Shown piece by piece: positions 11,784 through 51,977 of a stretch of DNA of 64,000 nt (positions are counted from its first letter, which is position 1; each line of letters begins with the position of its first letter). This DNA is from Minisyncoccota bacterium (GTDB lineage Bacteria; Patescibacteriota; Minisyncoccia; Phycocordibacterales; DSPV01): NCBI GenBank assembly GCA_041662545.1, contig JBAZSH010000003.1:1250-65249 (forward strand), given 5' to 3'. A program made the translations under genes and the position numbers. The notes under the pieces are model-generated. The model made no database searches and had not been told where the DNA came from. It saw only the letters and a list, made by a program, of their open reading frames with translations.

Positions 11784-12791
11784 ATGAAAATCGTTATTGC
11801 TACGGGCATATACCCGCCAGAAATTGGGGGACCAGCTCAATACGCCAAGAATCTAAAGGCGGAATTTGAGGCGCAAGGCCATAGTGTTGGGGTTTTGACT
11901 TACCGATTGGAAAAAAAGTTGCCGACAGGCGTTCGCCACCTCTGGTTTTTTTTGCGGTGTCTTTGGTCTTTGCCGACAGCTGATTTTGCTGTGGCACTGG
12001 ATACTTTTAGCGCTGGTTGGCCGGCGGTGATGGCGGCAAAAATTTTAGGTAAAAAAATCGTCATCCGAACCGGCGGTGATTTTTTGTGGGAATGGTATGT
12101 GGAGCGGACAGGGGATTTGGTTTTGCTTAAGGATTTTTACCGGACTCGATTTGAAAAGTTGAATCTCAAAGAAAAAATTGTTTTTAAGCTTTCCTGTTGG
12201 ACGGTTCGCAATGCCAGCCACTTGATTTTTAGCACCGATTGGCAAAGAAAAATTTGGTTGCCAATTTACGGTTTTGACGAGACAAAAACGACGATTGTGG
12301 AAAATCATTATGGGCCGAAAGAATTATCTCTTCCGCCCACAGAGAAAAATTTTCTTGCTGGCACTCGGCCGCTTAAATGGAAAAATGCCAAGCGTTTAGC
12401 GGTGGCATTTGCCAAGGATCACATTAAAAGCGCCCAGATTGTTTATGACGATACCACCAAACCGTTTGAAAAGTTTATGGACAAGGTTGCCCATTGTTAC
12501 GCTGTGATTTTAGTGTCACTTGGTGATGTCAGTCCCAATTTAATTTTAGACGCCATTCGCCACAACAAGCCGTTTATTTTAACCAAAGAAACCGGTTTTT
12601 ATGATAAGCTGAAAGATGTGGGACTTTTTGTTGACCCGGAAAATATTGATGATATTGCCGAAAAGATTTTATATTTGGCTGATGAGAAAAATTATGTGCA
12701 ATGTCGGAAAAAGATTGAAAATTTTAATTTTACTCACACTTGGCGTCAAATTACCGACGAATTTTTAGCAGTTTACAAAAATCTCCGATGA
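11784..12791 (+). CDS. Glycosyltransferase, GT-B fold (GT4-like)
   Basis: N-terminus MKIVIATGIYPPEIGGPAQYAKNL typical of Glyco_trans_4 N-domain. Confidence 0.55.
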   Translation: MKIVIATGIYPPEIGGPAQYAKNLKAEFEAQGHSVGVLTYRLEKKLPTGVRHLWFFLRCLWSLPTADFAVALDTFSAGWPAVMAAKILGKKIVIRTGGDFLWEWYVERTGDLVLLKDFYRTRFEKLNLKEKIVFKLSCWTVRNASHLIFSTDWQRKIWLPIYGFDETKTTIVENHYGPKELSLPPTEKNFLAGTRPLKWKNAKRLAVAFAKDHIKSAQIVYDDTTKPFEKFMDKVAHCYAVILVSLGDVSPNLILDAIRHNKPFILTKETGFYDKLKDVGLFVDPENIDDIAEKILYLADEKNYVQCRKKIENFNFTHTWRQITDEFLAVYKNLR

Positions 12792-13786
12792 AAGTTTTAA
12801 TGATTTCCACCGATCGGAATATTTTTAAAGAAGATAGTGCTGTTCGAGCACGGATGATTGAGTATGGTAAAAATTATGATGAGTTGCACATTATAATTTT
12901 TAGCAAAAAAATAACATCAGAAACCAAAATTGCCGAAAATGTTTTTATCTACCCGACCAATTCATCATCAAAGTTTTTCTACATTTCAGATGCGATAAAA
13001 ATTGGCAAAAAGATTTTGCGCTCAGGAGGTTTCCAGTTGACTTGCCAAGATCCATTTGAGTGTGGGTTTGTTGGTTGGAAGCTATCTAGGAAATTGAAAA
13101 TTCCATTGGAACTGCAAATCCATACCGATATTGGTAGTCCTTATTTTACAAGCTTAAAATTGGGCTGGAGCTTGGCTTTTTTGAATTTTACGCGTTTCCA
13201 AATAGCGAAATTTTTATTACCCAAAGCTGATAAAATTAGGGTGGTTTCTGTAAGAATCAAAAATTTTCTTTTAACCCGAGAAATTGCTACAAACAAAATT
13301 GAAGTTAGGCCGATAAAAATTAATCTAAAAACAGATGGTTTACCAAAACAATATCCCCAATTTGATTTTATCGCCCTAGCTGTTGGCCGATTGGAACCGG
13401 AGAAAAATATAAGTTTGGCGATTGATGCTTGGCAAGAAGTTGTTAAAAAATTTCCCCGCGCCGGATTAATAATCGTCGGTTCCGGCTCAGAGTTAAAGTT
13501 TTTAAAGTCTAAAGTCCAAAGTTTAAAGTTGGGTAATAATATAGCGTTTGAGAGTTGGACGGAAAATCTAGCTGTTTATTACAAAACTGCCGATGTTTTT
13601 CTCAATACTTCTTTTTATGAGGGCTATGGGATGGCTTTGGCCGAAGCAACTACCGCCGATTGCCCGATTGTTTCTTCTGATGTTGGAGCGGTGAATGAAA
13701 TTTTGCAGAGCAATCGAAGGTTAGCTGTTTGTCCAATTGGGGATAAAAATTGTTTTGTTGCTAAAATAACTGAACTATTCAAATAA
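12788..13786 (+). CDS. Glycosyltransferase, GT4 family
   Basis: MKVLMISTDRNIF start (ATGA overlap with upstream GT); C-terminal EGYGMALAEA(T) GT4 sugar-donor motif. Confidence 0.55.
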   Translation: MKVLMISTDRNIFKEDSAVRARMIEYGKNYDELHIIIFSKKITSETKIAENVFIYPTNSSSKFFYISDAIKIGKKILRSGGFQLTCQDPFECGFVGWKLSRKLKIPLELQIHTDIGSPYFTSLKLGWSLAFLNFTRFQIAKFLLPKADKIRVVSVRIKNFLLTREIATNKIEVRPIKINLKTDGLPKQYPQFDFIALAVGRLEPEKNISLAIDAWQEVVKKFPRAGLIIVGSGSELKFLKSKVQSLKLGNNIAFESWTENLAVYYKTADVFLNTSFYEGYGMALAEATTADCPIVSSDVGAVNEILQSNRRLAVCPIGDKNCFVAKITELFK

Positions 13787-13812
13787 ATTTTTTCGTGTAG
13801 AATGTTGTCATT

Positions 13813-14682
13813 ATGAATAATAAGCCTTTAATTGGTTTTATTGGTCAGGGTTTTGTGGGTAAAAGCTATGCCGACGATTTCGAAAAACGGGGTTTTTCGG
13901 TAGTTCGCTATGCCAGGGAAAAATCTTTTGTGATCAATAACGAAAAAATAAAAAAATGCGATATGGTTTTTGTCGCTGTGCCAACCCCCACAACACCAAA
14001 AGGTTTTGACGTTAGCATTGTTCAAGATGTGATTAAACTTGTCGGTGTCGGAAAAATTGTTATTATTAAGTCAACAATTTTGCCGGGAACTACTAAAACA
14101 CTTCAAAAAAAATATCCTAGTAGGATAATTTTACACTCACCGGAATTTCTTAGTGAATTGACTGCGGCTAAGGAAGCAGCCAATCCTTTTTCAAATATTA
14201 TCGGTATGGCCAAAAATTCCGTTCGCCATAAAAAAGCGGCCAAACAAGTGATGTCGGTTTTGCCGAAATCGCCGTTCAATCTGATTTGCATTGCCGAAGA
14301 GGCCGAATTGTTCAAATATATTCACAATGCCAGTGGCTATACCCAAATTATTTTCTTCAATTTAATGTATGATTTAGCTAAAGCCGTTGGTGCTGATTGG
14401 CAGGTGATTGAATCGGCGGTTAAAGCTGATCCTTACATTCCCAATCGTTATGCCAGACCTGTCCACAAAAGTGGCCGAGGTGCCGGCGGGCATTGTTTTA
14501 TTAAGGACTTCGCAGCACTTTCAGCTCTTTATTGCCGATTATTCACTAATTCTAAAGGCTGTACCCTTTTTGGGGTGACCGCGGCGAAGAATATAGAATT
14601 GCTTATTGAAAGCGGTAAGGATTTAGATATTTTGAAGAATACTTATGGCAATGAAATTATTGATTCTTACTCAAAAAATTAA
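13813..14682 (+). CDS. Nucleotide-sugar (UDP-glucose/GDP-mannose) dehydrogenase family protein, short form lacking C-terminal domain
   Basis: GFIGQGFVGKS Rossmann motif, VFVAVPTP, SPEFLSE, catalytic GRGAGGHCFIKD (GGxCxxKD); only 289 aa. Confidence 0.5.
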   Translation: MNNKPLIGFIGQGFVGKSYADDFEKRGFSVVRYAREKSFVINNEKIKKCDMVFVAVPTPTTPKGFDVSIVQDVIKLVGVGKIVIIKSTILPGTTKTLQKKYPSRIILHSPEFLSELTAAKEAANPFSNIIGMAKNSVRHKKAAKQVMSVLPKSPFNLICIAEEAELFKYIHNASGYTQIIFFNLMYDLAKAVGADWQVIESAVKADPYIPNRYARPVHKSGRGAGGHCFIKDFAALSALYCRLFTNSKGCTLFGVTAAKNIELLIESGKDLDILKNTYGNEIIDSYSKN

Positions 14683-15700
14683 TAAAGCCGATCCGGTACT
14701 TGGTTTTTTCCACCGCTGGCTTTTGGCATTTGCCACGAATTTTGAAAAAATCACCGTGATTTGCCTTGAGCTTGGCGAATATGATTTGCCAGCTAATGTT
14801 CAAGTTCTTTCTCTTGGAAAAGAACAAGGAAAATCTCGCGTGAAATATCTGAGAAATTTCTACAAATACATTTGGCAAACAAGGCATGACTACGATGTTG
14901 TGTTTGTTCATATGAATCAAGAATATATTCTACTGGGCGCGCTGATTTGGAAAATTTTGGGTAAGAAAACAGCTTTTTGGTATAATCATACTTGCGGTAA
15001 TTTTTTGACCAAAATCGCAATGTTTATGGCGGACATTGTTTGTCACACTTCGCCTTTCGCCTATACCGCTGGTACAAAAAAATCTAGACGAATGCCAGCT
15101 GGTATTGATATGACATTTTTTAAGCCAGACGAAAAAATAAGTCAAAAGTCAAAAAACATAATGTATATTGGTCGGATTGCGCCGTTAAAAAAAGTAGATG
15201 TCTTGATTGAAGCGGCAAGAATTTTGGATAGAGAGGAAATAGATTTTGTTTTGGATATTTACGGCGCCGCGCTTGACAAGGATAGCGATTATTTTGATCA
15301 ACTTAAAAAGAGTTCGGCGGAACTTCAAGCCAAAGGCAAACTTTTCTTCCGCGGCGCCGTCTCAAACCAATTAACACCAGAAATTTTTAACTCTCACTTG
15401 ATCTCTGTGAATCTAACTCCAAGAGGTAATTACGACAAAACGGTTTTGGAAGGTATGGCCTGTGGCACTTTGCCTTTGGTGTCCAGCCCGGCTTTTAATG
15501 ATATTATTCCAGTGGAATTTCGGTTCAAAGAAAACGAGGCTGATGATTTGGTGGAAAAAATTGAGTCTGTTTTTTCTCTTTCAGAAACAGCAGTGACCCA
15601 ACATGGTAGTAATTGCCGACAGGCAGTAGGGCAGAATCACGATTTAGTTTTGTTAGCCACTAATTTGGCAACACTTTTCAATAGTCCACAAGCGTGTTAA
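14645..15700 (+). CDS. Glycosyltransferase, GT4 family
   Basis: EGMACGTLPLVSS motif (E-x7-E region of GT4). Confidence 0.6.
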   Translation: MAMKLLILTQKINKADPVLGFFHRWLLAFATNFEKITVICLELGEYDLPANVQVLSLGKEQGKSRVKYLRNFYKYIWQTRHDYDVVFVHMNQEYILLGALIWKILGKKTAFWYNHTCGNFLTKIAMFMADIVCHTSPFAYTAGTKKSRRMPAGIDMTFFKPDEKISQKSKNIMYIGRIAPLKKVDVLIEAARILDREEIDFVLDIYGAALDKDSDYFDQLKKSSAELQAKGKLFFRGAVSNQLTPEIFNSHLISVNLTPRGNYDKTVLEGMACGTLPLVSSPAFNDIIPVEFRFKENEADDLVEKIESVFSLSETAVTQHGSNCRQAVGQNHDLVLLATNLATLFNSPQAC

Positions 15701-15710: not shown

Positions 15711-16841
15711 ATGAAAATTTATTATGTTGCTAATGTCAGATGGCCAACTTCTAGGGCACACGGCATTCAGCTTGCCAAGATGAGCGAGGCGCTGATGGAA
15801 GAGGGCGTCGATTTAACACTAATTGTGCCCAATCGAGGCGAAGGTGACCCACAAACTTTCTACGGTTTGCGTCAACCGATTCCGGTGATCAGAATTCCTA
15901 ATTTAAACCTTGGCAACAGCGCCCTCGGTTTTAATCTCTCAGCGTTTTTTTTCGCTGTCAACTCTTTTTTGTTTTTACTATTCCGTCGTTTGGAAAAAGA
16001 CACAATACTTTATACCATTGATTTGGATAATCTCTCTTTTTTTCTTCTGCCGTTTTTGGGCCGGCCGGTTTTTGCCGAAGTTCACGGTTCCAAGAAATTA
16101 AGTTTTTTTTCCAAAATCTTCTTTAGCAAGATCTCTGGAGTTTTTGCGGTTAGTGAGGGAGTAAAATCAAGCTTAATCAAAAGTTTCAATTTATCGCTGG
16201 AAAAGATTATCGTTTGTCCCAACGGTATTGATTTTCAAATGTTTGAAAACTTGCCGGCGGCTGAAACCATTAGGCAAAAATTAAATTTTCCCAAAGGGCC
16301 AGTATTTTTATATGTTGGCCGATTTTATAACTGGAAAGGTCTTGAAGTTTTGCCAGCTGCTGCTGAAAAAGTCGGCGAGAAGGCTTCAATTGTTTTGGTT
16401 GGCGGCAGCGCCACTGAATTTAGTCGGATTACTGGAGAAAAAAAATTGCCAGCCAACCTGATTTTTGCGGGTATTCAGCCATTTTCCGAAATTCCTCTTT
16501 GGCTGAATGCCGCTGATTTTCTGTTAGTGACAGCAACGAAAAAAGACGAATATTCTTATCACGAAACTTCGCCGATGAAATTGTTTGAATATTTGGCGAC
16601 AGGCAAGCCGATTATTGCCGCCAAGACTCCCGCCATAGGTAATGTGGTATCGGCAGAGGAAGTTATCTTTTATGAGCCGGATGATGTGGCTGATTTAATT
16701 AAACAAATGAATTTTGTTCTTGATAATCAAAATGTTTGTGATGCTAAAGCTCAGCGAGCTTTAGCAAAAGCCAAAGAATTTTCTTGGCAAAAGCGGGCAG
16801 AAAGAGTTTTGGCGTTAATGAATAAGAAAATAAAAAAATGA
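15711..16841 (+). CDS. Glycosyltransferase, GT4 family
   Basis: FEYLATGKPIIAAKTPAIGNVV GT4 C-domain motif. Confidence 0.6.
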   Translation: MKIYYVANVRWPTSRAHGIQLAKMSEALMEEGVDLTLIVPNRGEGDPQTFYGLRQPIPVIRIPNLNLGNSALGFNLSAFFFAVNSFLFLLFRRLEKDTILYTIDLDNLSFFLLPFLGRPVFAEVHGSKKLSFFSKIFFSKISGVFAVSEGVKSSLIKSFNLSLEKIIVCPNGIDFQMFENLPAAETIRQKLNFPKGPVFLYVGRFYNWKGLEVLPAAAEKVGEKASIVLVGGSATEFSRITGEKKLPANLIFAGIQPFSEIPLWLNAADFLLVTATKKDEYSYHETSPMKLFEYLATGKPIIAAKTPAIGNVVSAEEVIFYEPDDVADLIKQMNFVLDNQNVCDAKAQRALAKAKEFSWQKRAERVLALMNKKIKK

Positions 16842-21199: not shown

Positions 21200-21625
21200 A
21201 TGGGGATGAATTTAATTAAACGGTTTATCGTGCCTCGTTATTTAATTGGCGGCGCCTGCGGCGCCGCCACCAATGTTTTTTTTCTTTTTCTACTCGTTGA
21301 TGTTTTCGGTGTTTGGTATCTTCAGGCAGCGGTTTGGTCTTTTTTAATTTCTTGGCTAGTGAGTTTTTTGCTACAGAAGTATTGGACTTTTCAGAATTAT
21401 TCAACCGAAAATGGCGTGTTACAAAAACAGGCAACACTCTTTTTTGCTGTTTCCTTTTTAAATTTAGGAATTAATACTCTCTTGATGTATATCTTTGTGG
21501 ACTTTTTCCAGCTGTGGTATTTATTGGCTCAGGTGTTTTCCTCGGCATTAATCGCTATCAGCAGTTTCTTTATCTACAAACATTTTGTATTTAAAGAGAA
21601 AACTATTGCCCCCCAATCTCTATGA
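21200..21625 (+). CDS. GtrA-family small membrane protein (polyprenyl-phosphate-sugar flippase-like)
   Basis: 141 aa, 4 TM, FIVPRYLIGGACGAATNVFFLFLLVDVFGVWYLQA GtrA-like N-terminus. Confidence 0.6.
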   Translation: MGMNLIKRFIVPRYLIGGACGAATNVFFLFLLVDVFGVWYLQAAVWSFLISWLVSFLLQKYWTFQNYSTENGVLQKQATLFFAVSFLNLGINTLLMYIFVDFFQLWYLLAQVFSSALIAISSFFIYKHFVFKEKTIAPQSL

Positions 21626-32371: not shown

Positions 32372-32431
32372 TGGTAGATTATATCACATTACCTTTTCTT
32401 TTCCAGATTGTCGCGTTATAATTAATTTTCA

Positions 32432-46962: not shown

Positions 46963-48127
46963 ACCCAAACAAAAAAGAAAAGTTTGTTTCGTCATCACGA
47001 GTTTTATTCATTACTCGCGTGGTCTTTTCATTTTGGAAGAATTGAAAAATTGTTCGGATGTGGAGCTTCATATTGTCATCAGCGGTACCGCTTTGCTTGC
47101 CAAGTATTCTTCAAAGTTTTCCTATGTGAAAGATATTTTGGAGCGCGAAGGTTACAAAAATTTTCATGAGCTTTATTTCAATTTGGAAGGCGATAGCCAC
47201 ATCACTAAAGCAAAAACTACTGGTGTTGGTATTATAGAATTTTCCACTTTTTTCAATCATCTTAAACCGGATGTGGTAGTTTTGCGTGGCGATCGATTTG
47301 AAGTGTTGTCCGCTGCTGTGGCAGCCGCTTATTTACAAATTCCCATTGCTCATATTGAGGGGGGGGATGTTACCGGTTCCATTGATGAAAGCGTTCGCCA
47401 CGCCATTACTAAGCTCTCGCATTTACACTTTGCCACCAATGAAGACGCCAAAAAGAGAATTTTGCGAATGGGCGAAAATCCCAAATATGTTTTCAATTTT
47501 GGCAGTCCGGAAATTGAAGTGGTTCATCGGATAATCAACGGCAAACATCATATTGATTTTAGTCAGACCGGTTCTGGTGCGCCATTTGATATTAAGCAAG
47601 ATTTTTTGATGGTGATGTATCAGCCGTTAACCACCGAGACCGAGCGCTTGGCCGAATACACTAAGACCATTTTGTCGGCAGTTCACGAGACAGCGATTCC
47701 AACGCTTTGGTTCTGGCCTAATTTTGACACTGGGGCTGAAGAAATTTCTCGCACCTTGCGGGAGTTTCGTGATCAAACCAAAGACCACAAGATTCGTTTT
47801 ATGCGCTATTTACCACCGCGCGATTTTATCTGGCTTTTGAAACATACTCGGGCGCTTATTGGTAATTCTTCCTCTGGCATTAAAGAGTCATCCTATCTTG
47901 GTGTGCCGGTGGTTAATATTGGCGAGCGGCAGGGCGGGCGTTTACGGGCTAAAAATGTTTTGGATGTGTCGCACAAAAAAGAATATATTAAAAAAGCGAT
48001 TGAAAAACAAATCAGTAAAAATCGTTATCAGCCGTCCAAAATTTATTTCGCTAAGGATACGGCTCGCAAAATTGCCAAAACCTTGGCCACCACCAATCTT
48101 TATGTCCAAAAAAAATTCCACAACTAA
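46952..48127 (+). CDS. UDP-N-acetylglucosamine 2-epimerase, NeuC-like (hydrolysing type), second copy
   Basis: VVLRGDRFEVLSAAVAAAYLQIPIAHIEGGDVTGSIDESVRHAITKLSHLHFATNEDAKKRI, near-identical to NeuC consensus block. Confidence 0.75.
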   Translation: MSDKPKQKRKVCFVITSFIHYSRGLFILEELKNCSDVELHIVISGTALLAKYSSKFSYVKDILEREGYKNFHELYFNLEGDSHITKAKTTGVGIIEFSTFFNHLKPDVVVLRGDRFEVLSAAVAAAYLQIPIAHIEGGDVTGSIDESVRHAITKLSHLHFATNEDAKKRILRMGENPKYVFNFGSPEIEVVHRIINGKHHIDFSQTGSGAPFDIKQDFLMVMYQPLTTETERLAEYTKTILSAVHETAIPTLWFWPNFDTGAEEISRTLREFRDQTKDHKIRFMRYLPPRDFIWLLKHTRALIGNSSSGIKESSYLGVPVVNIGERQGGRLRAKNVLDVSHKKEYIKKAIEKQISKNRYQPSKIYFAKDTARKIAKTLATTNLYVQKKFHN

Positions 48128-48839
48128 ACCGAAAATTCTGGCGGTGATTACTGCCCGAGGTGGTTCTAAAGGTATACCGGGGAAAAACATTAAACCCTTG
48201 GGTGGCAAACCGTTGATTGCTTATTCCATTGATGCGGCAAAAAAGAGTAAGTTGATCACTCACCTTATTGTTTCTACCGATGATAAAAAAATCGCGCGGA
48301 TTGCTATAAAATATGGCGCCGAAGTACCGTTTTTGCGTCCGAAAAAATTAGCCCAAGATAAAACACCCCATGTGCCAGTGATGTGTCACGCCATAGAATT
48401 TGTGGAGAAAAAACTCGGCATTATTTTTGATTACGCCGTAATTCTACAGCCGACCTCTCCGTTTCGTTTGCCGGAAGATATTGATAACACCTTGGAGAAA
48501 CTTATTAAAAATAGCGCTGATAGTGCGGTGTCGTTGGTTGATGTTGATAATTATCATCCGGTGAAAGCTAAAAAATTAGCGGGTGATAAAGTGTTGCCAT
48601 ATATGACACCTGAACCCGAAGGCACTCGTCGGCAAGATTTTCCGCCGGCTTATCGTCGGAGTGGGGCAATTTACGCTATGCGTCGGGATTTATTGATAAA
48701 AGACAACCGACTTTATGGTGATTATATTGTTGGTCACATTGTGCCAGCCGAGCGCTCGGTGGATATTGATACGCCGTTTGAATGGTTTCGGGCCGAGTGG
48801 ATGTTGGAGGATTTAAAACGCAAAGGATATGAATTTTAA
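48102..48839 (+). CDS. Acylneuraminate (nonulosonate) cytidylyltransferase, NeuA-like (second copy); start uncertain
   Basis: KPKILAVITARGGSKGIPGKNIKPLGGKPLIAYSIDAA; first in-frame ATG (48102) lies 26 nt inside the neuC-like gene in another frame; the long upstream ORF extension is implausible. Confidence 0.6.
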   Translation: MSKKNSTTKPKILAVITARGGSKGIPGKNIKPLGGKPLIAYSIDAAKKSKLITHLIVSTDDKKIARIAIKYGAEVPFLRPKKLAQDKTPHVPVMCHAIEFVEKKLGIIFDYAVILQPTSPFRLPEDIDNTLEKLIKNSADSAVSLVDVDNYHPVKAKKLAGDKVLPYMTPEPEGTRRQDFPPAYRRSGAIYAMRRDLLIKDNRLYGDYIVGHIVPAERSVDIDTPFEWFRAEWMLEDLKRKGYEF

Positions 48840-48843
48840 TTAT

Positions 48844-49788
48844 ATGAAAATTTTAAATACTATCGGCGAAAATTTTGCGTTGGAAGCTAAAAAAATACTG
48901 GTTGGCTTGGGCAAAGTTGATTATAAAATTCCAACCCAGAAAGAGCTGGCGGAAATAATTGGTGATTATGACGCGGTAATCGTTGGTCTCGGTTTAAATT
49001 TCCATAAAGAAATTTTGTCACGAGCGAAAAAACTAAAAGTAATTGCTACGGCGACTACGGGTCTTGACCACATTGATGTCGCTTGGGCGAAAAAGCGGGG
49101 GATTAAGGTTTTAAGTTTACGGGGCGAGGAAAAGTTTTTAAACACCATTACTGGCACGGCCGAATTGGCTTTCGGTTTACTCATTGATTTGTCGCGCTTC
49201 ACACCTTGGGCTTTTGAAGATGTGAAAAATTATCGTTGGCGGCGCGAGGATTGGAAAGGCGCGAGTTTATACGGTAAAACTTTGGGTATTATTGGTTTGG
49301 GGCGATTAGGAAAAATGACGGCGCGTTTTGGCCAAGCGTTTGGTATGAAAGTTTTGTTTACCGACCCGAATGTTTCGCCAAAAGATTTTCCTCAATACAA
49401 AAAGGTTTCTTTAAAAAAATTGCTCAAAGAAAGTAGTGCGGTTTCCATCCATCTTCATCTAGGCAAAGATACGGAAAATCTTTTGGCTAGAAAAGAATTT
49501 ACCCTAATGAAAAAAAGCGCGATTTTAGTGAACACCTCACGCGGTAAAATCGTCAACGAAAAAGATTTACTGGTTGCTTTGAAAAGTGGTCAATTGGGTG
49601 GTTATGCGACTGATGTTTTGGCTGACGAACTTTCTTTTAAAACTGTTGGTTTCAAAAAACACCCACTGGTTGAATATTCTAAAACCCACCAAAATCTTAT
49701 TATCGCCCCACATATTGGCGGTATGACCACCGACTCCCGCCTCGCCACTGACCTATTCATGGTGGAGAAATTGAATAAATTCTTGTAA
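48844..49788 (+). CDS. D-isomer-specific 2-hydroxyacid dehydrogenase family (second copy)
   Basis: LGIIGLGRLGKMTARFG Rossmann motif; paralog of 39113..40078; alternative ATG at 48829 overlaps the upstream stop. Confidence 0.65.
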   Translation: MKILNTIGENFALEAKKILVGLGKVDYKIPTQKELAEIIGDYDAVIVGLGLNFHKEILSRAKKLKVIATATTGLDHIDVAWAKKRGIKVLSLRGEEKFLNTITGTAELAFGLLIDLSRFTPWAFEDVKNYRWRREDWKGASLYGKTLGIIGLGRLGKMTARFGQAFGMKVLFTDPNVSPKDFPQYKKVSLKKLLKESSAVSIHLHLGKDTENLLARKEFTLMKKSAILVNTSRGKIVNEKDLLVALKSGQLGGYATDVLADELSFKTVGFKKHPLVEYSKTHQNLIIAPHIGGMTTDSRLATDLFMVEKLNKFL

Positions 49789-49805
49789 GCTGGTATATTG
49801 GTGGG

Positions 49806-51977
49806 ATGAAATTAAATAAGATTTTGCGTTGGGTGGCGTTGGGGGGAATTTTTCTGGTGCCGTTTGTACCACTAGTAATCGCAAATAATCTGTTCTTCCC
49901 GTTCATTACTGGCAAGGCCTTTGTTTTCAGAATTTTGGTAATGATTGCCGCCGGTGCTTGGCTGATTTTGGCTTTGCGGGACGAGGACTATCGGCCGAAA
50001 AATTCTTGGATTTTAAAAGCGCTGGTAGTTTTTTTTGTTATTGTCAGTTTGGCCGATATTTTTGGCGCCAACCCCTTCAAAAGTTTTTGGAGTAATTTTG
50101 AGCGAATGGAGGGTTGGGTTGGGATTTTCCATCTATTTCTCTATTTCTTGACGGCCAGCTCAATGCTTAATGACTGGAAACTTTGGAAAAAATTTTTCCA
50201 AACCTCAATTGTCGCCAGTGTGATAATGAGTGGTTACGGTATCCTTCAATTGACAGGTGCGATGACAATTTTTCAAGGTGGTACGCGGTTGGATGGAACT
50301 TTTGGCAATGCCACTTACTTAGCGGTCTATATGCTTTTCCATATTTTTCTGACTTTTTTTCTTTTATTGCGCGAGCGCTTTAGCAAGACCTTACAATGGA
50401 CCTACGGCATTATTATCGCTTTGCAATTATTTACTCTGTATCATACCGCCACTCGCGGTGTGTCACTTGGTTTACTCGGTGGTATTTTAGTAACGGCAAT
50501 TTTAATCGCTTTATTTGAAAAAGAAAGATTATTTCTGAAAAAAGGTGCTCGAATTGCCCTAATCTCTATTGTGATTTTGGTTGGCGGTTTTATTGCTATA
50601 AAAAATACCAGTTTTGTTCAGAATAGTGGCTCGTTGTCGCGACTGGCTTCAATTTCTTTAAACGAAGCCGCGCCGCGTTTTATGGTTTGGAATATGGGCT
50701 GGCAGGGTTTTCTGGAACGGCCGATTTTGGGTTGGGGGCAAGAAAGTTTTAATTTTGTTTTCAATAAATATTATGACCCAAAAATGTATACCCAAGAGCA
50801 ATGGTTTGATCGTTCGCATAATATAATTTTTGATTGGCTAATTGCTGCCGGCATCCTCGGGCTTTTAAGTTATTTGTCAATTTTCGTTGCGCTTCTTTTT
50901 TATCTTTGGCGCGGCAAGAGCGAAGAATTTTCTTTTTCCGAGAAAGCTATTTTTACCGGTTTGCTAGCCGCTTACTTTTTCCAAAACATTTTTGTTTTTG
51001 ACAATATCGGCAGTTACATAATGTTTTTCTCCATTTTGGCTTTCTTCCACCTTAGCTTTGGCAAGTCTTTTTCTGATAAGTGGCAGAAGAAATTAGTTTT
51101 TGACGAAATGACGACCAATAAAATTGTCACGCCCATGATTGTGGTGATAGCACTTTTCGCTCTTTATTTTTTCAATACCAAACCCTATCTAACCGGCACG
51201 ACCTTGATTGGTGCTTTACAGGAGAGGGTGGTGGAACAGAAATTTGTTTTGTTTGAAAAAGCTCTGTCTTATAATTCTCTTGGTGGCGCTGAAATTCGCG
51301 AGCAACTTTCCCAGACGGCCTTAGGGGTCGGCGCATCGCAAGCTCCGGTAGAATGGAAACAAAAATATTTTGACTTGGCGCGTTCTGAACTCTTGAAACA
51401 GATTGAAGTGCCGAAAATCGGCGATGCTCGCTATGAACTTTTTCTCGGCTCATATCTGACTCGGTTCCAACGATATGATGAAGCGTTAATTCATTTGAAA
51501 AAAGCACAGGAACTTTCGCCCAAAAAACAAATAATTATGTTTGAAATCGGTTTGGTTTATATCAGCAATAAAAAATATGACCAGGCCTTAGAGGTTTTCC
51601 GTCAGGCTTATGAATTAGAAAAGAATTATCCCGACGCCCGTGATTATTATGCCGTTGCCGCCATTTACGCTGGCCAGGATAATCTGGTAAAATCTATTTT
51701 GGAGCCGGTTTATGGCACGACCATTGTTGATGGTGATAATTTCGTTAAGGCCTACGCTGACACCAATCAGTATCAAAAGGTTTTGGCAATTTGGCAATTA
51801 CGAGTGGAGCAAAATCCAGTGGCGAAAAATTACATTGGTCTCGGCGCTACCTATTTAAATCTGGGGCAAAGAACGAAATCCATTGAGGCCATTCAAAAAG
51901 CTATTGATTTGGACGCCAGTTTTAAAGATCAGGGCGAGTACTATATTAAAGAAATTCGGGCTGGTCGTAATCCTTAG
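49806..51977 (+). CDS. O-antigen ligase-like (Wzy_C/PglL-type) polytopic membrane protein with C-terminal TPR repeats (paralog of 931..3375)
   Basis: GWGQESFNFVF and RSHNIIFDWLIAAGILG Wzy_C-type loop/helix motifs; C-terminal TPR-like repeats (YDEALIHLKKAQELSPK, YDQALEVFRQAYELEKNYPDA). Confidence 0.6.
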   Translation: MKLNKILRWVALGGIFLVPFVPLVIANNLFFPFITGKAFVFRILVMIAAGAWLILALRDEDYRPKNSWILKALVVFFVIVSLADIFGANPFKSFWSNFERMEGWVGIFHLFLYFLTASSMLNDWKLWKKFFQTSIVASVIMSGYGILQLTGAMTIFQGGTRLDGTFGNATYLAVYMLFHIFLTFFLLLRERFSKTLQWTYGIIIALQLFTLYHTATRGVSLGLLGGILVTAILIALFEKERLFLKKGARIALISIVILVGGFIAIKNTSFVQNSGSLSRLASISLNEAAPRFMVWNMGWQGFLERPILGWGQESFNFVFNKYYDPKMYTQEQWFDRSHNIIFDWLIAAGILGLLSYLSIFVALLFYLWRGKSEEFSFSEKAIFTGLLAAYFFQNIFVFDNIGSYIMFFSILAFFHLSFGKSFSDKWQKKLVFDEMTTNKIVTPMIVVIALFALYFFNTKPYLTGTTLIGALQERVVEQKFVLFEKALSYNSLGGAEIREQLSQTALGVGASQAPVEWKQKYFDLARSELLKQIEVPKIGDARYELFLGSYLTRFQRYDEALIHLKKAQELSPKKQIIMFEIGLVYISNKKYDQALEVFRQAYELEKNYPDARDYYAVAAIYAGQDNLVKSILEPVYGTTIVDGDNFVKAYADTNQYQKVLAIWQLRVEQNPVAKNYIGLGATYLNLGQRTKSIEAIQKAIDLDASFKDQGEYYIKEIRAGRNP

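What the first reader, a model, noticed from the sequence alone, without database searches (positions are those of the whole stretch)
11784..51977. About 38 kb cell-surface glycan island combining a rare set of sugar pathways in a small-genome (CPR-like) bacterium
This is the coordinate-spanning entry for the whole island. The locus is one near-uninterrupted block of about 35 genes: >=7 GT4 transferases, a GtrA/GT2/GT-C module, a Wzx-like flippase, >=7 methyltransferases, two gmd copies, a ColD-type dehydratase, an SQD1-type UDP-sulfoquinovose synthase with a CysH-like partner, two complete nonulosonic-acid modules and four TagF-like paralogs. It is bounded on the right by an O-antigen-ligase/TPR paralog, whose sister copy sits at 931. 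For an organism with CPR-like genome economy this is an extraordinary investment in one surface glycoconjugate. The inferred glycan would be sulfated, methylated and nonulosonate- and dideoxyhexose-containing. Such a glycan has, to my knowledge, not been characterised in this lineage.
Basis: partly seen in the sequence, partly recalled or inferred. Interest (0 to 1): 0.85.

Follow-up and report, generated by a model that had tools for sequence, protein, structure and literature searches.

The report
Mosaic surface-glycan island in a Paceibacterium
A 40-kb uninterrupted block of 37 sugar-building genes in a tiny-genome (CPR) bacterium is real and native, similar blocks recur in its relatives, and its sulfo-sugar enzyme sits inside a sialic-acid-type gene cassette found across very different bacteria, hinting at an undescribed sulfonated sialic-acid-like sugar.

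Summary
Window 11784-51977 is 37 back-to-back genes, and 36 of them match glycan-biosynthesis families directly (the GT-C only through its homologs). They lie between housekeeping genes of a Paceibacteria (Patescibacteria/CPR) MAG.

Corrections:
- The sugar would be sulfonated, not sulfated; the island has no sulfotransferase.
- The TagF-like proteins weakly match the Tannerella nonulosonate-transferase family and travel with NulO genes, so they are better read as CMP-NulO transferases.
- The "sister" gene at 931 fails the Wzy_C test.
- There is no GC shift, tRNA or integrase. The island is native and mosaic, with a recombination breakpoint near 32378 against a 94%-identical relative.
- It is not unique. 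Related Paceibacteria keep the right-hand block, and another carries dual NulO modules followed by a Wzy_C-TPR gene.

New lead: in 10 further loci (GC 0.23-0.68), SQD1 is embedded among NeuC/NeuB/CMP-transferase genes. These co-cluster phylogenetically and come with no conserved SQ-transferase. UDP-sulfoquinovose may therefore feed a 9-sulfo nonulosonic acid. No paper linking the two was found.

The parts
11784..12791 (+). GT4 glycosyltransferase a (weak match)
   Evidence: Pfam Glyco_transf_4 scores 30 bits against a 28.5 cut-off. The same gene was called in the independent contig L001.
12788..13786 (+). GT4 glycosyltransferase b (the mechanical ORF starts at 12740)
   Evidence: Pfam Glycos_transf_1 scores 101 bits.
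13813..14682 (+). NDP-sugar dehydrogenase (UGDH-like), truncated to 289 aa with no C-terminal UDP-binding domain
   Evidence: Pfam UDPG_MGDP_dh_N and the central domain only are matched. TIGR03026 scores 119 bits, below its 190 cut-off. The catalytic Cys motif GGHCFIKD is present.
14645..15700 (+). GT4 glycosyltransferase c
   Evidence: Pfam Glycos_transf_1 scores 59 bits.
15711..16841 (+). GT4 glycosyltransferase d
   Evidence: Pfam Glycos_transf_1 scores 70 bits and Glyco_transf_4 scores 34 bits.
16838..19027 (+). Tandem double GT4 glycosyltransferase (729 aa, two catalytic units)
   Evidence: Pfam Glycos_transf_1 scores 263 bits in two stretches. NCBIfam gives many GT4 models, all below cut-off.
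19032..20036 (+). GDP-mannose 4,6-dehydratase GMD1 (the mechanical ORF starts at 18993)
   Evidence: TIGR01472 scores 533 bits against a 415 cut-off. Pfam GDP_Man_Dehyd gives E=1.6e-144.
20033..21196 (+). ColD-type PMP-dependent GDP-4-keto-6-deoxymannose 3-dehydratase
   Evidence: The best PDB match is ColD/WbdK 2gms at 243 bits. A His aligns with ColD His188 (the residue changed in the 3b8x variant sequence), where aminotransferases have Lys. The best NCBIfam match is RfbH.
21200..21625 (+). GtrA-family small membrane protein (polyprenyl-P-sugar flippase type)
   Evidence: Pfam GtrA_DPMS_TM scores 76.5 bits. Hydropathy shows several hydrophobic segments.
21603..23093 (-). Polytopic membrane protein, GT-C-superfamily candidate
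   Evidence: No direct Pfam hit. Hydropathy shows 10-12 TM segments. NCBIfam LIC_10190 family scores 45 bits, below its cut-off. Of 48 aligned homologs, 15 hit PMT_2 and others hit GT87, PMT or Glyco_transf_22. D129 is invariant in the loop GHDTLDYH.
23090..24490 (-). GT2 (polyprenyl-phosphate sugar synthase type) fused to a class-I methyltransferase
   Evidence: Pfam Glycos_transf_2 scores 126 bits, with Methyltransf_12/23 matches. The best NCBIfam matches are AglJ, dolichyl-P hexose transferase, ArnC and PpgS, all below cut-off.
24569..25129 (-). NUDIX hydrolase (weakly GDP-mannose mannosyl hydrolase-like)
   Evidence: Pfam NUDIX scores 42 bits. NCBIfam PRK15434 scores 36.6 bits against a 146 cut-off.
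25191..26117 (+). RmlD-family NDP-4-ketohexose reductase
   Evidence: Pfam RmlD_sub_bind scores 165 bits. TIGR01214 scores 149 bits against a 224 cut-off.
26091..27314 (-). GT4 glycosyltransferase e
   Evidence: Pfam Glycos_transf_1 scores 106 bits.
27376..28083 (+). SAM methyltransferase 1
   Evidence: Pfam Methyltransf_11 scores 69 bits.
28085..29473 (+). TagF/BFO_1060-like GT-B protein 1 (candidate CMP-NulO transferase)
   Evidence: Pfam Glyphos_transf scores 34 bits against a 22.1 cut-off. NF046086 scores 52 bits against a 200 cut-off.
29415..30839 (+). Wzx-type (MOP family) flippase
   Evidence: Pfam Polysacc_synt scores 28.6 bits against a 28.2 cut-off. Hydropathy shows about 12-13 TM segments.
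30842..31663 (+). SAM methyltransferase 2
   Evidence: Pfam Methyltransf_11 scores 54 bits.
31673..32371 (-). SAM methyltransferase 3
   Evidence: Pfam Methyltransf_23 scores 80 bits.
32372..32431 (.). Recombination breakpoint of the mosaic: homology to the 94%-identical relative L110 ends at about 32378
   Evidence: blastn aligns L110 1-5043 with window 37420-32378 at 93.9% identity. Beyond that point L110 carries different genes.
32432..33097 (+). TylF-family (sugar O-) methyltransferase
   Evidence: Pfam TylF scores 61 bits.
33099..33860 (-). SAM methyltransferase 4
   Evidence: Pfam Methyltransf_11 scores 56 bits.
33868..35220 (-). TagF/BFO_1060-like GT-B protein 2 (candidate CMP-NulO transferase)
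35278..36492 (+). NeuC-type hydrolysing NDP-sugar 2-epimerase, a-type (SQD1-linked clade)
   Evidence: TIGR03568 scores 316 bits against a 236 cut-off. The best PDB match is the hydrolysing GDP/UDP-diNAcBac 2-epimerase 5xvs at 193 bits, and the GDRxE and HxxGGE segments are kept in that alignment.
36510..37190 (+). CysH, APS-reductase type (sulfite supply)
   Evidence: PRK02090 scores 183 bits against a 154 cut-off, and TIGR00434 scores 165.4 against 165.1. CC...CxxC and ECGLH motifs are present.
37193..38395 (+). UDP-sulfoquinovose synthase (SQD1/SqdB type)
   Evidence: PDB 1qrr scores 495 bits over the full length, with T145, Y182, H183 and K186 conserved. NF041015 scores 450 bits against a 575 cut-off.
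38403..39116 (+). CMP-nonulosonate synthetase (cytidylyltransferase) a
   Evidence: Pfam CTP_transf_3 scores 102 bits. The best NCBIfam match is PseF at 169 bits against a 206 cut-off.
39113..40078 (+). D-2-hydroxyacid dehydrogenase a (short PGDH-like); role unknown
   Evidence: Pfam 2-Hacid_dh_C scores 168 bits. NCBIfam PGDH scores 190 bits, below its cut-off. The gene is conserved in NulO modules of other loci.
40080..41162 (+). NeuB-family nonulosonate synthase a (SQD1-linked clade; the mechanical ORF starts at 40002)
   Evidence: Pfam NeuB scores 160 bits, plus a SAF domain. TIGR03569 scores 188 bits against a 400 cut-off. Against N. meningitidis NeuB, the residues I recall as catalytic are mostly aligned and kept; E134 is D and N184 is T.
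41166..42479 (+). TagF/BFO_1060-like GT-B protein 3
   Evidence: Pfam Glyphos_transf scores 55.6 bits. NF046086 scores 49 bits. It is 79% identical to its counterpart in sister locus L082.
42476..43846 (+). TagF/BFO_1060-like GT-B protein 4
   Evidence: Pfam Glyphos_transf scores 44.9 bits. NF046086 scores 56 bits.
43843..44859 (+). GMD-family 4,6-dehydratase GMD2 (divergent)
   Evidence: Pfam GDP_Man_Dehyd gives E=2.4e-108. TIGR01472 scores 341 bits against a 415 cut-off. The top 11 PDB matches are all GMDs, led by 2z1m at 297 bits.
44852..45835 (+). SAM methyltransferase 5
   Evidence: Pfam Methyltransf_23 scores 48 bits. The gene is conserved next to NeuB_b in L082 and L083.
45844..46962 (+). 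NeuB-family nonulosonate synthase b (the mechanical ORF starts at 45757)
   Evidence: Pfam NeuB scores 214 bits, plus a SAF domain. TIGR03569 scores 241 bits and TIGR03586 scores 212 bits, both below cut-off.
46952..48127 (+). NeuC-type hydrolysing 2-epimerase b
   Evidence: TIGR03568 scores 349 bits against a 236 cut-off.
48102..48839 (+). CMP-nonulosonate synthetase b (the mechanical ORF starts at 47859)
   Evidence: Pfam CTP_transf_3 scores 91 bits. PseF scores 187 bits against a 206 cut-off.
48829..49788 (+). D-2-hydroxyacid dehydrogenase b (short PGDH-like)
   Evidence: Pfam match. PDB 1wwk scores 162 bits. It has more than 2000 homologs; those that carry a source name are mostly Parcubacteria/Paceibacterota.
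49806..51977 (+). Wzy_C (O-antigen ligase/polymerase family) membrane domain with C-terminal TPR
   Evidence: Pfam Wzy_C scores 61.9 bits against a 31.7 cut-off, plus TPR matches. Hydropathy shows about 12 TM segments. A gene of this architecture follows the glycan genes in L082-L085 and L109.
931..3375 (+). Polytopic membrane + TPR protein next to MurJ; same architecture as the 49806 protein but not a demonstrable Wzy_C member
   Evidence: Only TPR hits were found, and there is no Wzy_C hit at E<=1. BLASTP to the 49806 protein gives 23% identity at E=1e-14 over the full length, and E=0.002 for the membrane domains alone.

Best explanation
Window 11784-51977 is a chromosomally native, recombination-shuffled locus for one or more complex cell-surface glycoconjugates of a Paceibacteria (CPR) bacterium.

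Shown by sequence: it encodes three kinds of activated-sugar supply.
(i) A GDP-3,6-dideoxyhexose route. GMD1 and the ColD-type 3-dehydratase are followed by an RmlD-family 4-reductase, with a NUDIX hydrolase alongside.
(ii) UDP-sulfoquinovose, made by SQD1 with sulfite from an Fe-S APS-reductase-type CysH.
(iii) Two old, divergent CMP-nonulosonate modules. Each has a NeuC hydrolysing 2-epimerase, a NeuB synthase, a cytidylyltransferase and a PGDH-like 2-hydroxyacid dehydrogenase.

Inferred assembly:
- Seven GT4 units and four TagF/BFO_1060-like GT-B enzymes build a polyprenyl-phosphate-linked oligosaccharide on the cytoplasmic face. The GT-B enzymes are read here as CMP-NulO transferases.
- Six free methyltransferases O-methylate it.
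- Wzx flips it across the membrane.
- A three-component system (GT2-MT fusion, GtrA, GT-C) adds a further sugar outside the membrane.
- The Wzy_C-TPR protein polymerises it or ligates it to its acceptor. CPR bacteria lack lipid A (established knowledge), so the acceptor is more likely a protein such as a pilin or S-layer protein (as for PglL), or a wall polymer.

My favoured reading of the 35278-43846 segment is that the SQD1 product is a pathway intermediate, not merely a donor for a sulfoquinovose residue. On this reading the a-type NeuC releases it and NeuB_a condenses it with PEP to give a 9-deoxy-9-sulfo nonulosonic acid. That part is inference from conserved gene order only; I put it at about 0.4.
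For: - Gene content: Pfam and NCBIfam assignments for all ORFs.
- Active-site checks: SQD1, ColD His188, NeuB, NeuC, CysH motifs.
- GT-C by transitive homology.
- The TagF2 model has a GT-B fold.
- BFO_1060 is the orthologue of Tanf_01245, a genetically proven pseudaminic-acid transferase with a TagB-like domain (PMC5420450). All four paralogs hit that NCBIfam model.
- TagF-like genes flank NulO genes in L082, L083, L087, L088, L090, L109 and L110.
- Native and mosaic: GC is 0.399 against 0.413 and 0.425 in the flanks. The same right-hand block and site occur in L082 at 78% nt identity. A breakpoint lies near 32378 against L110 at 93.9% nt identity. No tRNA lies at either edge, and no ORF matched a recombinase family.
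- Wzy_C-TPR follows the glycan genes in L082-L085 and L109.
- SQD1-NulO coupling: 10 further loci with GC 0.23-0.68 have SQD1 directly among NeuC, NeuB and CMP-transferase genes, often with 4-bp overlaps.
- The SQD1-linked NeuB sequences, and most of the SQD1-linked NeuC and CMP-transferase sequences, cluster apart from the b-type in NJ trees. The a-type NeuC clade has more than 40 clade-specific invariant residues.
- No GT4 or other obvious SQ-transferase is conserved in these cassettes.
- In 1.28 Mb of control Paceibacteria loci, none of the 18 island proteins tested (NulO, TagF-like, Wzy_C-TPR, GMD1 and two GT4) had a homolog.
Against: - No initiating phosphoglycosyltransferase (Bac_transf or MraY-like) is present anywhere in the 64-kb window, although other Parcubacteria loci have one beside Wzy_C-TPR. 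The lipid-linked pathway is therefore incomplete as seen.
- No ATP sulfurylase is in the window to supply APS for CysH.
- The RmlD-family enzyme is not the ColC-type epimerase/reductase of the colitose pathway, so the identity of the dideoxyhexose is open.
- The UGDH-like gene is truncated.
- The BFO_1060 matches are far below the family cut-off (49-61 against 200 bits) and cover only about the first half of the model.
- Fold searches could not separate TagF-like from other GT-B enzymes.
- For the sulfo-NulO idea: NeuC-type enzymes are known only with 2-acetamido substrates, whereas UDP-SQ carries 2-OH.
- L087 shows NeuC-SQD1-CMPtr-TagF but no NeuB within 21 kb. L094 has a PseB-like dehydratase beside SQD1 and no NeuC.
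- No gained basic residue was seen in the SQD1-linked NeuB clade.
- The role of the 2-hydroxyacid dehydrogenases is unexplained.
Confidence: 0.8

Rival explanations
1. The pathways are independent. SQD1 and CysH only supply UDP-sulfoquinovose for a sulfoquinovose residue that one of the GT4 enzymes puts into the glycan. Both NeuC/NeuB/CMP-transferase modules make ordinary Neu5Ac- or Leg-type sugars from UDP-GlcNAc. The shared gene order reflects co-inherited 'acidic sugar' cassettes.
For: - The known SQ transferases SQD2 and SqdX are GT4 enzymes (established knowledge), and the island has 7 GT4 units.
- The tandem GT4 weakly matches Agl16 of the sulfoquinovose-containing Sulfolobus N-glycan pathway, at 138 bits against a 575 cut-off.
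- The SQD1 active site and motifs are canonical and plant-like.
- NeuC_a passes the NeuC equivalog cut-off.
- L087 lacks NeuB near SQD1.
Against: - In L088, L090, L092, L093, L103, L108 and L109 no GT4 lies next to the SQD1 cassette, while NeuC, NeuB and the CMP-transferase always do.
- SQD1 is interleaved between NeuC and the CMP-transferase, not appended to them.
- The SQD1-linked NeuC and NeuB enzymes form their own clades across GC 0.23-0.68, which suggests a dedicated specificity.
- Two NulO modules making the same sugar in one island would be redundant. The paralogs are only 29-42% identical.
Confidence: 0.45
2. The four TagF-like proteins are true teichoic-acid-type polyol-phosphate transferases or polymerases, so the locus makes a wall-teichoic-acid-like polymer decorated with sugars.
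For: - All four pass the Pfam Glyphos_transf gathering score.
- A small TagD/RfaE-II-like nucleotidyltransferase lies at about 55.7-56.15 kb.
- Sources name the homologs 'CDP-glycerol glycerophosphotransferase family'.
Against: - There is no CDP-glycerol or CDP-ribitol synthesis gene inside the island. The nucleotidyltransferase at 55.7 kb is ambiguous: RfaE-II 69 bits, TagD 49 bits, both far below cut-off.
- All four also hit the Tannerella NulO-transferase model.
- In at least seven loci the paralogs sit directly beside CMP-NulO synthesis genes.
Confidence: 0.2
3. The island is a recently acquired foreign genomic island or an assembly chimera rather than a native locus.
For: - None of 80 related Paceibacteria species has any island gene within 10 kb downstream of ArgRS.
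- Contigs of two of the three closest ArgRS relatives end at or just after ArgRS: L007 within the gene and L003 about 2.8 kb downstream.
- Strain-level content differs to the left of about 32378.
Against: - GC differs by only 1.4-2.6 points from the flanks.
- No tRNA lies at either edge, and no ORF matched a recombinase family.
- The left junction is reproduced at 99.98% identity in an independent assembly, L001.
- The right-hand 12 kb, including the junction with HPF-PPIase-Fmt, is syntenic in L082 to L084.
- The closest homologs of island genes are from Parcubacteria.
Confidence: 0.05

Closest known systems
Wzx/Wzy-dependent O-antigen, capsule and general protein O-glycosylation loci (for example the Tannerella forsythia O-glycan cluster with its Pse/Leg module and Tanf_01245 transferase)
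   Same: Both cluster nucleotide-sugar genes, GT4/GT2 transferases, a Wzx flippase, a Wzy_C-family enzyme, methyltransferases, a NulO module and a TagB-like NulO transferase. In both, strain-level swapping of the NulO module leaves the rest conserved (PMC5420450).
   Different: The host is a CPR bacterium without lipid A. No initiating phosphoglycosyltransferase is in the locus. The Wzy_C domain is fused to TPR repeats. There are four paralogous TagB-like proteins and two or more NulO modules, each with a PGDH-like dehydrogenase. An SQD1/CysH pair sits inside a NulO module.
Legionaminic and pseudaminic acid pathways (NDP-hexose C6 modification, then a NeuC-like hydrolysing epimerase, a NeuB-like synthase and a CMP-transferase)
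   Same: The enzyme families are the same. The proposed logic is also the same: an SDR enzyme modifies C4/C6 of an NDP-hexose before release and condensation with PEP. NeuC_a's best solved relative is the hydrolysing GDP/UDP-diNAcBac 2-epimerase of the legionaminic-acid type (5xvs).
   Different: No aminotransferase or N-acetyltransferase belongs to the module. The C6-modifying enzyme is SQD1, which adds sulfite, instead of a simple 4,6-dehydratase. The predicted product, a 9-sulfo NulO, has not been reported in any paper I could find.
Sulfolipid and sulfoquinovose-glycan systems (plant SQD1/SQD2, cyanobacterial sqdB-sqdX, rhizobial sqdBDC, Sulfolobus agl3)
   Same: The SQD1 orthologue is 55% identical to the Arabidopsis enzyme, with its catalytic residues and the motifs YHLSKVHDS and DLNQGVVYG conserved.
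   Different: The gene partners here are NeuC, NeuB, a CMP-transferase and CysH, not SqdX, SqdD or diacylglycerol-directed transferases. The same partners occur in 10 other loci.
E. coli O55/O111 colitose pathway (Gmd, ColD, ColC) and colanic-acid Gmd/WcaH
   Same: GMD1 is followed directly by a ColD-type 3-dehydratase with the diagnostic His. A NUDIX hydrolase lies nearby, as with Gmm/WcaH.
   Different: The reductase belongs to the RmlD family and is not the ColC/GFS-type epimerase-reductase. No ManB or ManC is present. The final sugar may be a D-series 3,6-dideoxyhexose rather than L-colitose.
Three-component extracytoplasmic glycosylation systems (GtrA/GtrB/GtrC; CsbB/GtcA/YfhO)
   Same: All three components are adjacent: a GT2 of polyprenyl-P-sugar synthase type, a GtrA-family protein and a GT-C-superfamily membrane protein.
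   Different: The GT2 is fused to a methyltransferase and lacks clear C-terminal TM helices. The GT-C member is only recognisable through its homologs.

Membership tests
UDP-sulfoquinovose synthase (SQD1/SqdB/Agl3) | Extended SDR with catalytic Thr145, Tyr182 and Lys186 (plus His183), and full-length similarity to a characterised enzyme | tested here: met
   495 bits to 1qrr over residues 16-398. T, Y-H-x-x-K all align. The catalytic triad is taken from PMC4388408.
UDP-sulfoquinovose synthase (SQD1/SqdB/Agl3) | NCBIfam equivalog NF041015 curated cut-off | tested here: not met
   450 bits against a 575 cut-off, with full model coverage. I suspect the model is tuned to archaeal Agl3-type sequences, but this was not checked.
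UDP-sulfoquinovose synthase (SQD1/SqdB/Agl3) | Converts UDP-glucose plus sulfite to UDP-sulfoquinovose | not testable with these tools
   Needs an enzyme assay.
ColD (GDP-4-keto-6-deoxymannose 3-dehydratase) | DegT-fold enzyme with His in place of the Schiff-base Lys (His188 in E. coli ColD) | tested here: met
   'GHH' aligns with ColD 'SHH'. The first His aligns with the residue changed in the 3b8x variant sequence. ColD entries are the top four PDB hits.
GDP-mannose 4,6-dehydratase | TIGR01472 equivalog cut-off | tested here: met
   GMD1 scores 533 bits against a 415 cut-off. GMD2 fails at 341 bits, although its top 11 PDB matches are GMDs.
NeuC (hydrolysing UDP-GlcNAc 2-epimerase family) | TIGR03568 cut-off and the conserved GDRxE and HxxGGE segments | tested here: met
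   The two copies score 316 and 349 bits against a 236 cut-off. The GDRxE and HxxGGE segments are kept in NeuC_a. Substrate identity was not tested.
NeuB / PseI nonulosonate synthases | NeuB TIM barrel plus SAF domain, with metal and PEP ligands | tested here: met
   Both copies have Pfam NeuB and SAF domains. In NeuB_a the residues aligned with E25, K53, Q55, K129, S132, H215, E234, H236, D247 and R314 of N. meningitidis NeuB are kept; E134 is D and N184 is T (the residue roles are from memory).
NeuB / PseI nonulosonate synthases | Equivalog cut-offs that would name the product (TIGR03569 Neu5Ac, TIGR03586 Pse) | tested here: not met
   NeuB_a scores 188 and 130 bits; NeuB_b scores 241 and 212 bits. 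The cut-offs are 400 and 340. The product cannot be named.
TagB/TagF CDP-glycerol glycerophosphotransferases (Pfam Glyphos_transf) | Pfam gathering score and GT-B fold | tested here: met
TagB/TagF CDP-glycerol glycerophosphotransferases (Pfam Glyphos_transf) | A CDP-glycerol or CDP-ribitol supply gene (TagD, TarI, TarJ) in the locus | tested here: not met
   None lies within 11784-51977. An ambiguous small nucleotidyltransferase lies outside the island at about 55.7 kb.
BFO_1060/Tanf_01245 nonulosonate transferases | NCBIfam NF046086 cut-off | tested here: not met
   49-61 bits against a 200 cut-off, covering only model positions about 39-196 of 365. This is a resemblance, not membership.
BFO_1060/Tanf_01245 nonulosonate transferases | Genomic coupling to CMP-NulO synthesis genes | tested here: met
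   Adjacent in the window and in L082, L083, L087, L088, L090, L109 and L110.
Wzy_C (O-antigen ligase / polymerase / PglL family) | Pfam PF04932 gathering score within a polytopic membrane domain | tested here: met
   The 49806-51977 protein scores 61.9 bits against a 31.7 cut-off and has about 12 TM segments. The 931-3375 protein gives no hit at E<=1, so it does not meet this test.
GT-C glycosyltransferase superfamily | Polytopic membrane protein with an acidic catalytic motif in the first outside loop, recognisable by a GT-C family model | tested here: inconclusive
   - No direct Pfam hit.
- Of 48 homologs, 15 hit PMT_2 and others hit GT87, PMT or Glyco_transf_22.
- D129 is invariant.
- The profile search against PDB was empty.
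- The single-sequence AF2 model failed at pLDDT 44.
Assimilatory APS/PAPS reductase (CysH) | NCBIfam cut-offs, the C-terminal ECGLH catalytic Cys, and the CC...CxxC Fe-S motif of the APS type | tested here: met
   PRK02090 scores 183 bits against 154, and TIGR00434 scores 165.4 against 165.1. The motifs were read in the sequence.
Wzx/Wzy-dependent lipid-linked glycan pathway | An initiating polyprenyl-phosphate phosphoglycosyltransferase (Bac_transf/WbaP or WecA/MraY type) | tested here: not met
   No such family appears among the roughly 60 ORFs of at least 120 aa that were scanned. Other Parcubacteria loci do have Bac_transf.
Mobile genomic island | Compositional shift, flanking tRNA or direct repeats, and an integrase | tested here: not met
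   GC is 0.399 against 0.413 and 0.425. tRNAs occur only at 785 and 55.3-55.7 kb. No ORF matched a recombinase family. Direct repeats were not searched.

The most novel reading that the evidence does not exclude
The segment NeuC_a-CysH-SQD1-CMP-transferase-(2HADH)-NeuB_a plus the TagF-like transferases (35278-43846) is one member of a widespread, undescribed cassette found in Patescibacteria, in an alphaproteobacterial MAG and in unassigned metagenome contigs with GC from 0.23 to 0.68.

In this cassette UDP-sulfoquinovose (or a 6-sulfo-QuiNAc analogue) would be the precursor of a 9-deoxy-9-sulfo nonulosonic acid. That would be a sulfonated sialic-acid-like sugar, activated as a CMP-sugar and placed on the cell surface.

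If true, it would be a new class of nonulosonic acid and a second biological fate for sulfoquinovose chemistry besides sulfolipids and archaeal N-glycans.
Probability: 0.4. Interest if true: 0.85.

Novelty: new variant of a known kind. Interest (0 to 1): 0.62.

Why it matters
CPR/Patescibacteria are thought to live attached to other cells, and their surfaces are almost unstudied chemically. This locus is about 40 kb in a lineage whose genomes are typically under about 1 Mb (established knowledge). Its conserved relatives show that Paceibacteria keep a hypervariable, nonulosonate-rich, methylated and sulfonated glycan system anchored by a Wzy_C-TPR enzyme. Such a system is a likely determinant of host attachment and phage recognition.

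Separately, SQD1 is repeatedly embedded in NeuC/NeuB/CMP-transferase cassettes across unrelated lineages. That makes a concrete prediction which a few recombinant enzymes, or a DMB/LC-MS nonulosonate survey, could test. The prediction is a sulfonated nonulosonic acid, with [M-H]- at 331.03 for a 9-sulfo-Kdn type or 372.06 for a 9-sulfo-Neu5Ac type.

It also warns annotators on two points. 'CDP-glycerol glycerophosphotransferase family' proteins next to NulO genes are probably NulO transferases. And the PGDH-like dehydrogenases here belong to NulO modules, not to serine synthesis.

Tried and rejected
1. Looking for the island in sister genomes through ArgRS synteny. Eighty loci keep DHFR-ThyA-SHMT-Tmk-ArgRS but none has island genes downstream. 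This showed that the left junction is lineage-specific, but it could not describe island variation. The 2HADH_b and TagF2 look-ups did that instead.

2. The idea that 2HADH_b is a housekeeping fermentation or serine gene lying outside the island. I raised this because of its more than 2000 close Parcubacteria homologs. I rejected it because four of the five contigs examined have it inside or beside NulO genes; the fifth, L086, has it beside sulfate-activation and GT4/Bac_transf genes.

3. Structure of the GT-C candidate. The single-sequence AF2 model failed at pLDDT 44, and the profile search against PDB was empty.

4. Fold search to separate TagF-like from sialyltransferase-like enzymes. It returned only generic GT-B matches.

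5. SQD1 Arg101 replaced by Pro looked like a specificity change, but every bacterial homolog has Pro there.

6. A search for gained basic residues in SQD1-linked NeuB, which could bind a sulfonate. None was found; only H132, N157, T204 and W317 are clade-specific.

7. A parallel role for GMD2 as the C6-modifying step of module b. This is weakened because L083 keeps module b without GMD2.

8. Literature searches for any link between sulfoquinovose and nonulosonic or sialic acid biosynthesis, or between CPR and either sugar. Nothing relevant was found.

Full report
**What is there.** The mechanical ORF list shows 37 ORFs filling 11784-51977, with gaps of under 80 bp. Pfam and NCBIfam assign 36 of them to glycan-biosynthesis families.

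Reading left to right, the genes are:
- GT4, GT4, a truncated NDP-sugar dehydrogenase, GT4, GT4 and a tandem double GT4.
- GMD1 (TIGR01472, 533 bits against a 415 cut-off) and a DegT-family enzyme.
- GtrA, and on the minus strand a 496-aa protein with 10-12 TM segments, a GT2-methyltransferase fusion and a NUDIX hydrolase.
- An RmlD-family reductase, GT4 (minus strand), a methyltransferase and TagF-like 1.
- A Wzx-type flippase, four methyltransferases (one of the TylF family) and TagF-like 2 (minus strand).
- NeuC_a, CysH, an SQD1-like SDR, a CMP-transferase, a 2-hydroxyacid dehydrogenase and NeuB_a.
- TagF-like 3 and 4, GMD2, a methyltransferase, NeuB_b, NeuC_b, a CMP-transferase and a second 2-hydroxyacid dehydrogenase.
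- A Wzy_C+TPR membrane protein.

Several mechanical ORFs start too early. The probable true starts are 12788, 19032, 40080, 45844 and 48102.

**Surroundings and organism.** The flanks are housekeeping genes. On the left are FtsH, tRNA-Ile, a TPR membrane protein, MurJ, ScpA, a thymidylate-cycle cluster and ArgRS. On the right are HPF, PPIase, Fmt, Def, UDG, three tRNAs, enolase, Obg and GatB.

ArgRS relatives are all Patescibacteria/Paceibacteria MAGs, 78% identical at best. The window's own proteins are NCBI MFA6273123.1 to MFA6273134.1, from a 67,144-bp contig of a 'Candidatus Paceibacterota bacterium' MAG. The CPR assignment is correct.

**Key enzyme checks.**
- The SDR at 37193 scores 495 bits against Arabidopsis SQD1 over its whole length, and Thr145, Tyr182, His183 and Lys186 are conserved. 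The catalytic triad is as given in PMC4388408. It shares the plant-type motifs YHLSKVHDS and DLNQGVVYG.
- The partner at 36510 passes two CysH cut-offs. It has the CC...CxxC Fe-S motif and the ECGLH catalytic motif of APS reductases.
- The DegT enzyme's best solved relatives are ColD structures. Its His aligns with ColD His188, the position where aminotransferases have Lys.
- Both NeuC copies pass the hydrolysing-epimerase equivalog, and NeuC_a keeps the conserved GDRxE and HxxGGE segments.
- Both NeuB copies have NeuB and SAF domains but fall below the Neu5Ac- and Pse-specific cut-offs. NeuB_a keeps nearly all metal and PEP ligands of N. meningitidis NeuB.
- The 496-aa membrane protein has no direct family hit. 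However, 15 of 48 homologs found by an exhaustive search hit PMT_2, and others hit GT87, PMT or Glyco_transf_22. An Asp in the loop GHDTLDYH is invariant. This gives indirect support for GT-C.

**Corrections to the interpretation.**

1. SQD1 makes a sulfonate, and no sulfotransferase is present. The glycan would be sulfonated, not sulfated.

2. The four 'TagF-like' proteins pass Pfam Glyphos_transf. All four also hit NCBIfam NF046086, the 'BFO_1060 family glycosyltransferase'. BFO_1060 is the strain-92A2 orthologue of Tanf_01245, the genetically proven pseudaminic-acid transferase of Tannerella forsythia, which has a TagB-like domain (PMC5420450). The scores of 49-61 bits are far below the cut-off of 200, so this is a resemblance and not membership. 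Even so, the paralogs sit beside CMP-NulO genes here and in at least seven other loci, and the island has no CDP-polyol synthesis gene. An AF2 model (pLDDT 92) is a GT-B fold that resembles 2-epimerases, TarL and TagF about equally, so the fold does not decide the question.

3. The protein at 931 shares the architecture (polytopic membrane domain plus TPR) but gives no Wzy_C hit even at E<=1. Its membrane domain is only 23% identical to the 49806 protein, at E=0.002.

4. There is no compositional shift: 0.399 against 0.413 and 0.425. No tRNA lies at an edge and no ORF matched a recombinase family.

**Is it unusual for the lineage?** The 2-hydroxyacid dehydrogenase 2HADH_b has more than 2000 homologs. 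The top 120 are at least 51% identical, and those that carry a source name are mostly Parcubacteria. Their contexts are as follows.
- L082/L111 (78% nt identity) keep TagF3-TagF4-GMD2-MT5-NeuB_b-NeuC_b-CMPtr-2HADH_b, then Wzy_C/TPR-HPF-PPIase-Fmt at the same chromosomal site. In place of the SQD1 module they carry a different NulO-type module: CMP-transferase, GFO/IDH/MocA, AKR, AP_endonuc_2, SDR and NeuB.
- L083/L084 are further variants of the same block.
- L085, a more distant Parcubacterium, has two NulO modules, each with its own 2HADH, plus GT4, Bac_transf and Wzy_C/TPR.
- L086 and another contig put 2HADH next to a sulfotransferase, ATP sulfurylase, APS kinase, CysQ, Bac_transf and Wzy_C.
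- L110, a 93.9%-identical relative, shares window 32378-37420 and then diverges exactly between TylF and MT3 into other methyltransferases and a third kind of NulO module.

The locus is thus a native, recombination-shuffled glycan island. Its architecture (NulO modules with a PGDH-like dehydrogenase, TagF-like transferases, and a Wzy_C-TPR gene at the end of the glycan cluster) recurs in Paceibacteria. The literature already notes that Patescibacteria carry many surface-modification genes and that their phages carry gmd and rmd (PMC12911398). Nothing was found on nonulosonates or sulfoquinovose in them.

**The lead that goes beyond the finding.** SQD1 homologs in other organisms were examined through look-ups and one metagenome scan. 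Every homolog at least 57% identical with usable flanks lies directly among NulO genes:

| Locus | GC | Gene order |
|---|---|---|
| L087 (Patescibacteria) | not computed | NeuC-SQD1-CMPtr-TagF-like |
| L088 (Vogelbacteria) | not computed | NeuC-NeuB-TagF-like-CysH-SQD1-MT-CMPtr |
| L089 | 0.49 | CysH-SQD1-CMPtr-2HADH |
| L090/L091 | 0.51 | NeuB-NeuC-CMPtr-SQD1 |
| L092 | 0.37 | NeuB-NeuC-2HADH-CMPtr-SQD1 |
| L093 | 0.63 | NeuB-NeuC-CMPtr-SQD1 |
| L103 | 0.58 | NeuC-CMPtr-SQD1 |
| L094 | 0.23 | PseB-like-SQD1-NeuB-CMPtr |
| L108 (Hyphomicrobiales MAG) | 0.68 | NeuC...CMPtr...SQD1-NeuB |
| L109 (Patescibacteria) | 0.41 | TagF-NeuC-CysH-SQD1-SDR-CMPtr-NeuB-Wzy_C/TPR |

Further points:
- More distant SQD1 homologs (47-55% identity, with different motifs) have no NulO neighbours.
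- In NJ trees the SQD1-linked NeuB sequences, and most of the SQD1-linked NeuC and CMP-transferase sequences, cluster together. They sit apart from the window's b-type and from other types.
- The a-type NeuC clade has more than 40 clade-specific invariant positions.
- No GT4 or other obvious sulfoquinovosyl-transferase is conserved in these cassettes.
- As a crude control, 1.28 Mb of Paceibacteria DNA around ArgRS contains no NulO gene.

The simplest pathway that uses every cassette gene once runs as follows. CysH supplies sulfite and SQD1 makes UDP-sulfoquinovose. The a-type NeuC releases, and possibly 2-epimerises, the 6-sulfo sugar. NeuB_a condenses it with PEP to a 9-deoxy-9-sulfo nonulosonic acid. 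The cytidylyltransferase activates that sugar, and TagF/BFO_1060-like enzymes transfer it. This mirrors the logic of the legionaminic and pseudaminic acid pathways.

It is inference from gene order and co-clustering only. The weak points are these:
- NeuC-type enzymes are known only on 2-acetamido sugars.
- L087 shows no NeuB within view.
- L094 looks Pse-like.
- The dehydrogenase has no assigned step.

The main rival is that sulfoquinovose is simply a second acidic residue added by a GT4. No paper in the library links sulfoquinovose with nonulosonic or sialic acid biosynthesis.

**How the locus most likely works.** The sequence shows the supply of a GDP-3,6-dideoxyhexose, UDP-sulfoquinovose and two different CMP-nonulosonates. 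It also shows many transferases, a flippase, a three-component outside-the-membrane glycosylation set, methyltransferases and a Wzy_C-TPR enzyme.

The rest is inferred:
- Assembly takes place on a polyprenyl phosphate carrier.
- Wzx flips the product across the membrane.
- The Wzy_C-TPR enzyme polymerises it or ligates it to a protein or wall acceptor, since CPR bacteria have no lipid A.

Genes missing from the window are an initiating phosphoglycosyltransferase, ATP sulfurylase, ManB/ManC and GalU.

**Verdict.** In kind this is a new variant of a known system, a Wzx/Wzy-type glycan locus with NulO modules. It does carry a previously undescribed and testable association between SQD1 and nonulosonate synthesis that extends well beyond CPR.

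Noticed in passing
window 785-858 (-): A tRNA-Ile with anticodon UAU lies directly after the FtsH gene. My recollection is that most bacteria decode AUA with a lysidine-modified CAU tRNA instead, so this may be unusual.
   Followed up: no
window 55336-55672 (+) and ORF 55508-56155: A tRNA-Val/Pro/Ala cluster overlaps the mechanical ORF. The real gene probably starts at about 55700 and encodes a nucleotidyltransferase of roughly 150 aa, like TagD or RfaE domain II. A 47%-identical homolog sits beside 2HADH, GT4 and Bac_transf in locus L086.
   Followed up: partly
window 13813-14682: The UDP-glucose-dehydrogenase-like gene is only 289 aa. The catalytic Cys motif is present, but the C-terminal UDP-binding domain is absent, and the next gene overlaps its end so there is no room for it. 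A related genome (L083) has a full-length 579-aa version.
   Followed up: partly
window 39113-40078 and 48829-49788; L082-L085, L089, L092: A short PGDH-like D-2-hydroxyacid dehydrogenase is a recurrent fourth member of NeuB/NeuC/CMP-transferase modules. It has no step in any known nonulosonate pathway, so its role is unexplained.
   Followed up: partly
window 5830-10065: A compact thymidylate-cycle cluster (dCMP deaminase, a kinase, DHFR, ThyA, SHMT, Tmk) lies upstream of ArgRS. It is largely syntenic across about 80 Paceibacteria species.
   Followed up: partly
L086 2772-8102 and the contig of P0091: Other Parcubacteria glycan loci carry a sulfotransferase, a pyruvate-kinase-domain/PUA/ATP-sulfurylase fusion (with or without APS kinase) and a CysQ-like phosphatase. 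True sulfate esters may therefore also occur on CPR glycans.
   Followed up: no
L088 13992-15563 and L109 2389-3984: NeuB-cupin fusion proteins sit next to a CMP-transferase and a GFO/IDH/MocA oxidoreductase (plus a HAD phosphatase in L109, and a His_Phos_1 protein and a predicted kinase in L088). This is a third, different ulosonic-acid-type module in Patescibacteria.
   Followed up: no
window 23090-24490 (-): A polyprenyl-phosphate-sugar-synthase-type GT2 is fused to a class-I SAM methyltransferase. No C-terminal TM helices were detected by simple hydropathy.
   Followed up: no
L108 5801-7881 and 10217-11212: In the Hyphomicrobiales MAG the SQD1-NeuB pair is flanked by two sulfotransferase-like genes and a radical-SAM/SPASM enzyme.
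   Followed up: no
window 931-5055: The TPR membrane protein that fails the Wzy_C test is immediately followed by MurJ. This hints at a role in the cell-wall precursor pathway rather than in the glycan island.
   Followed up: no
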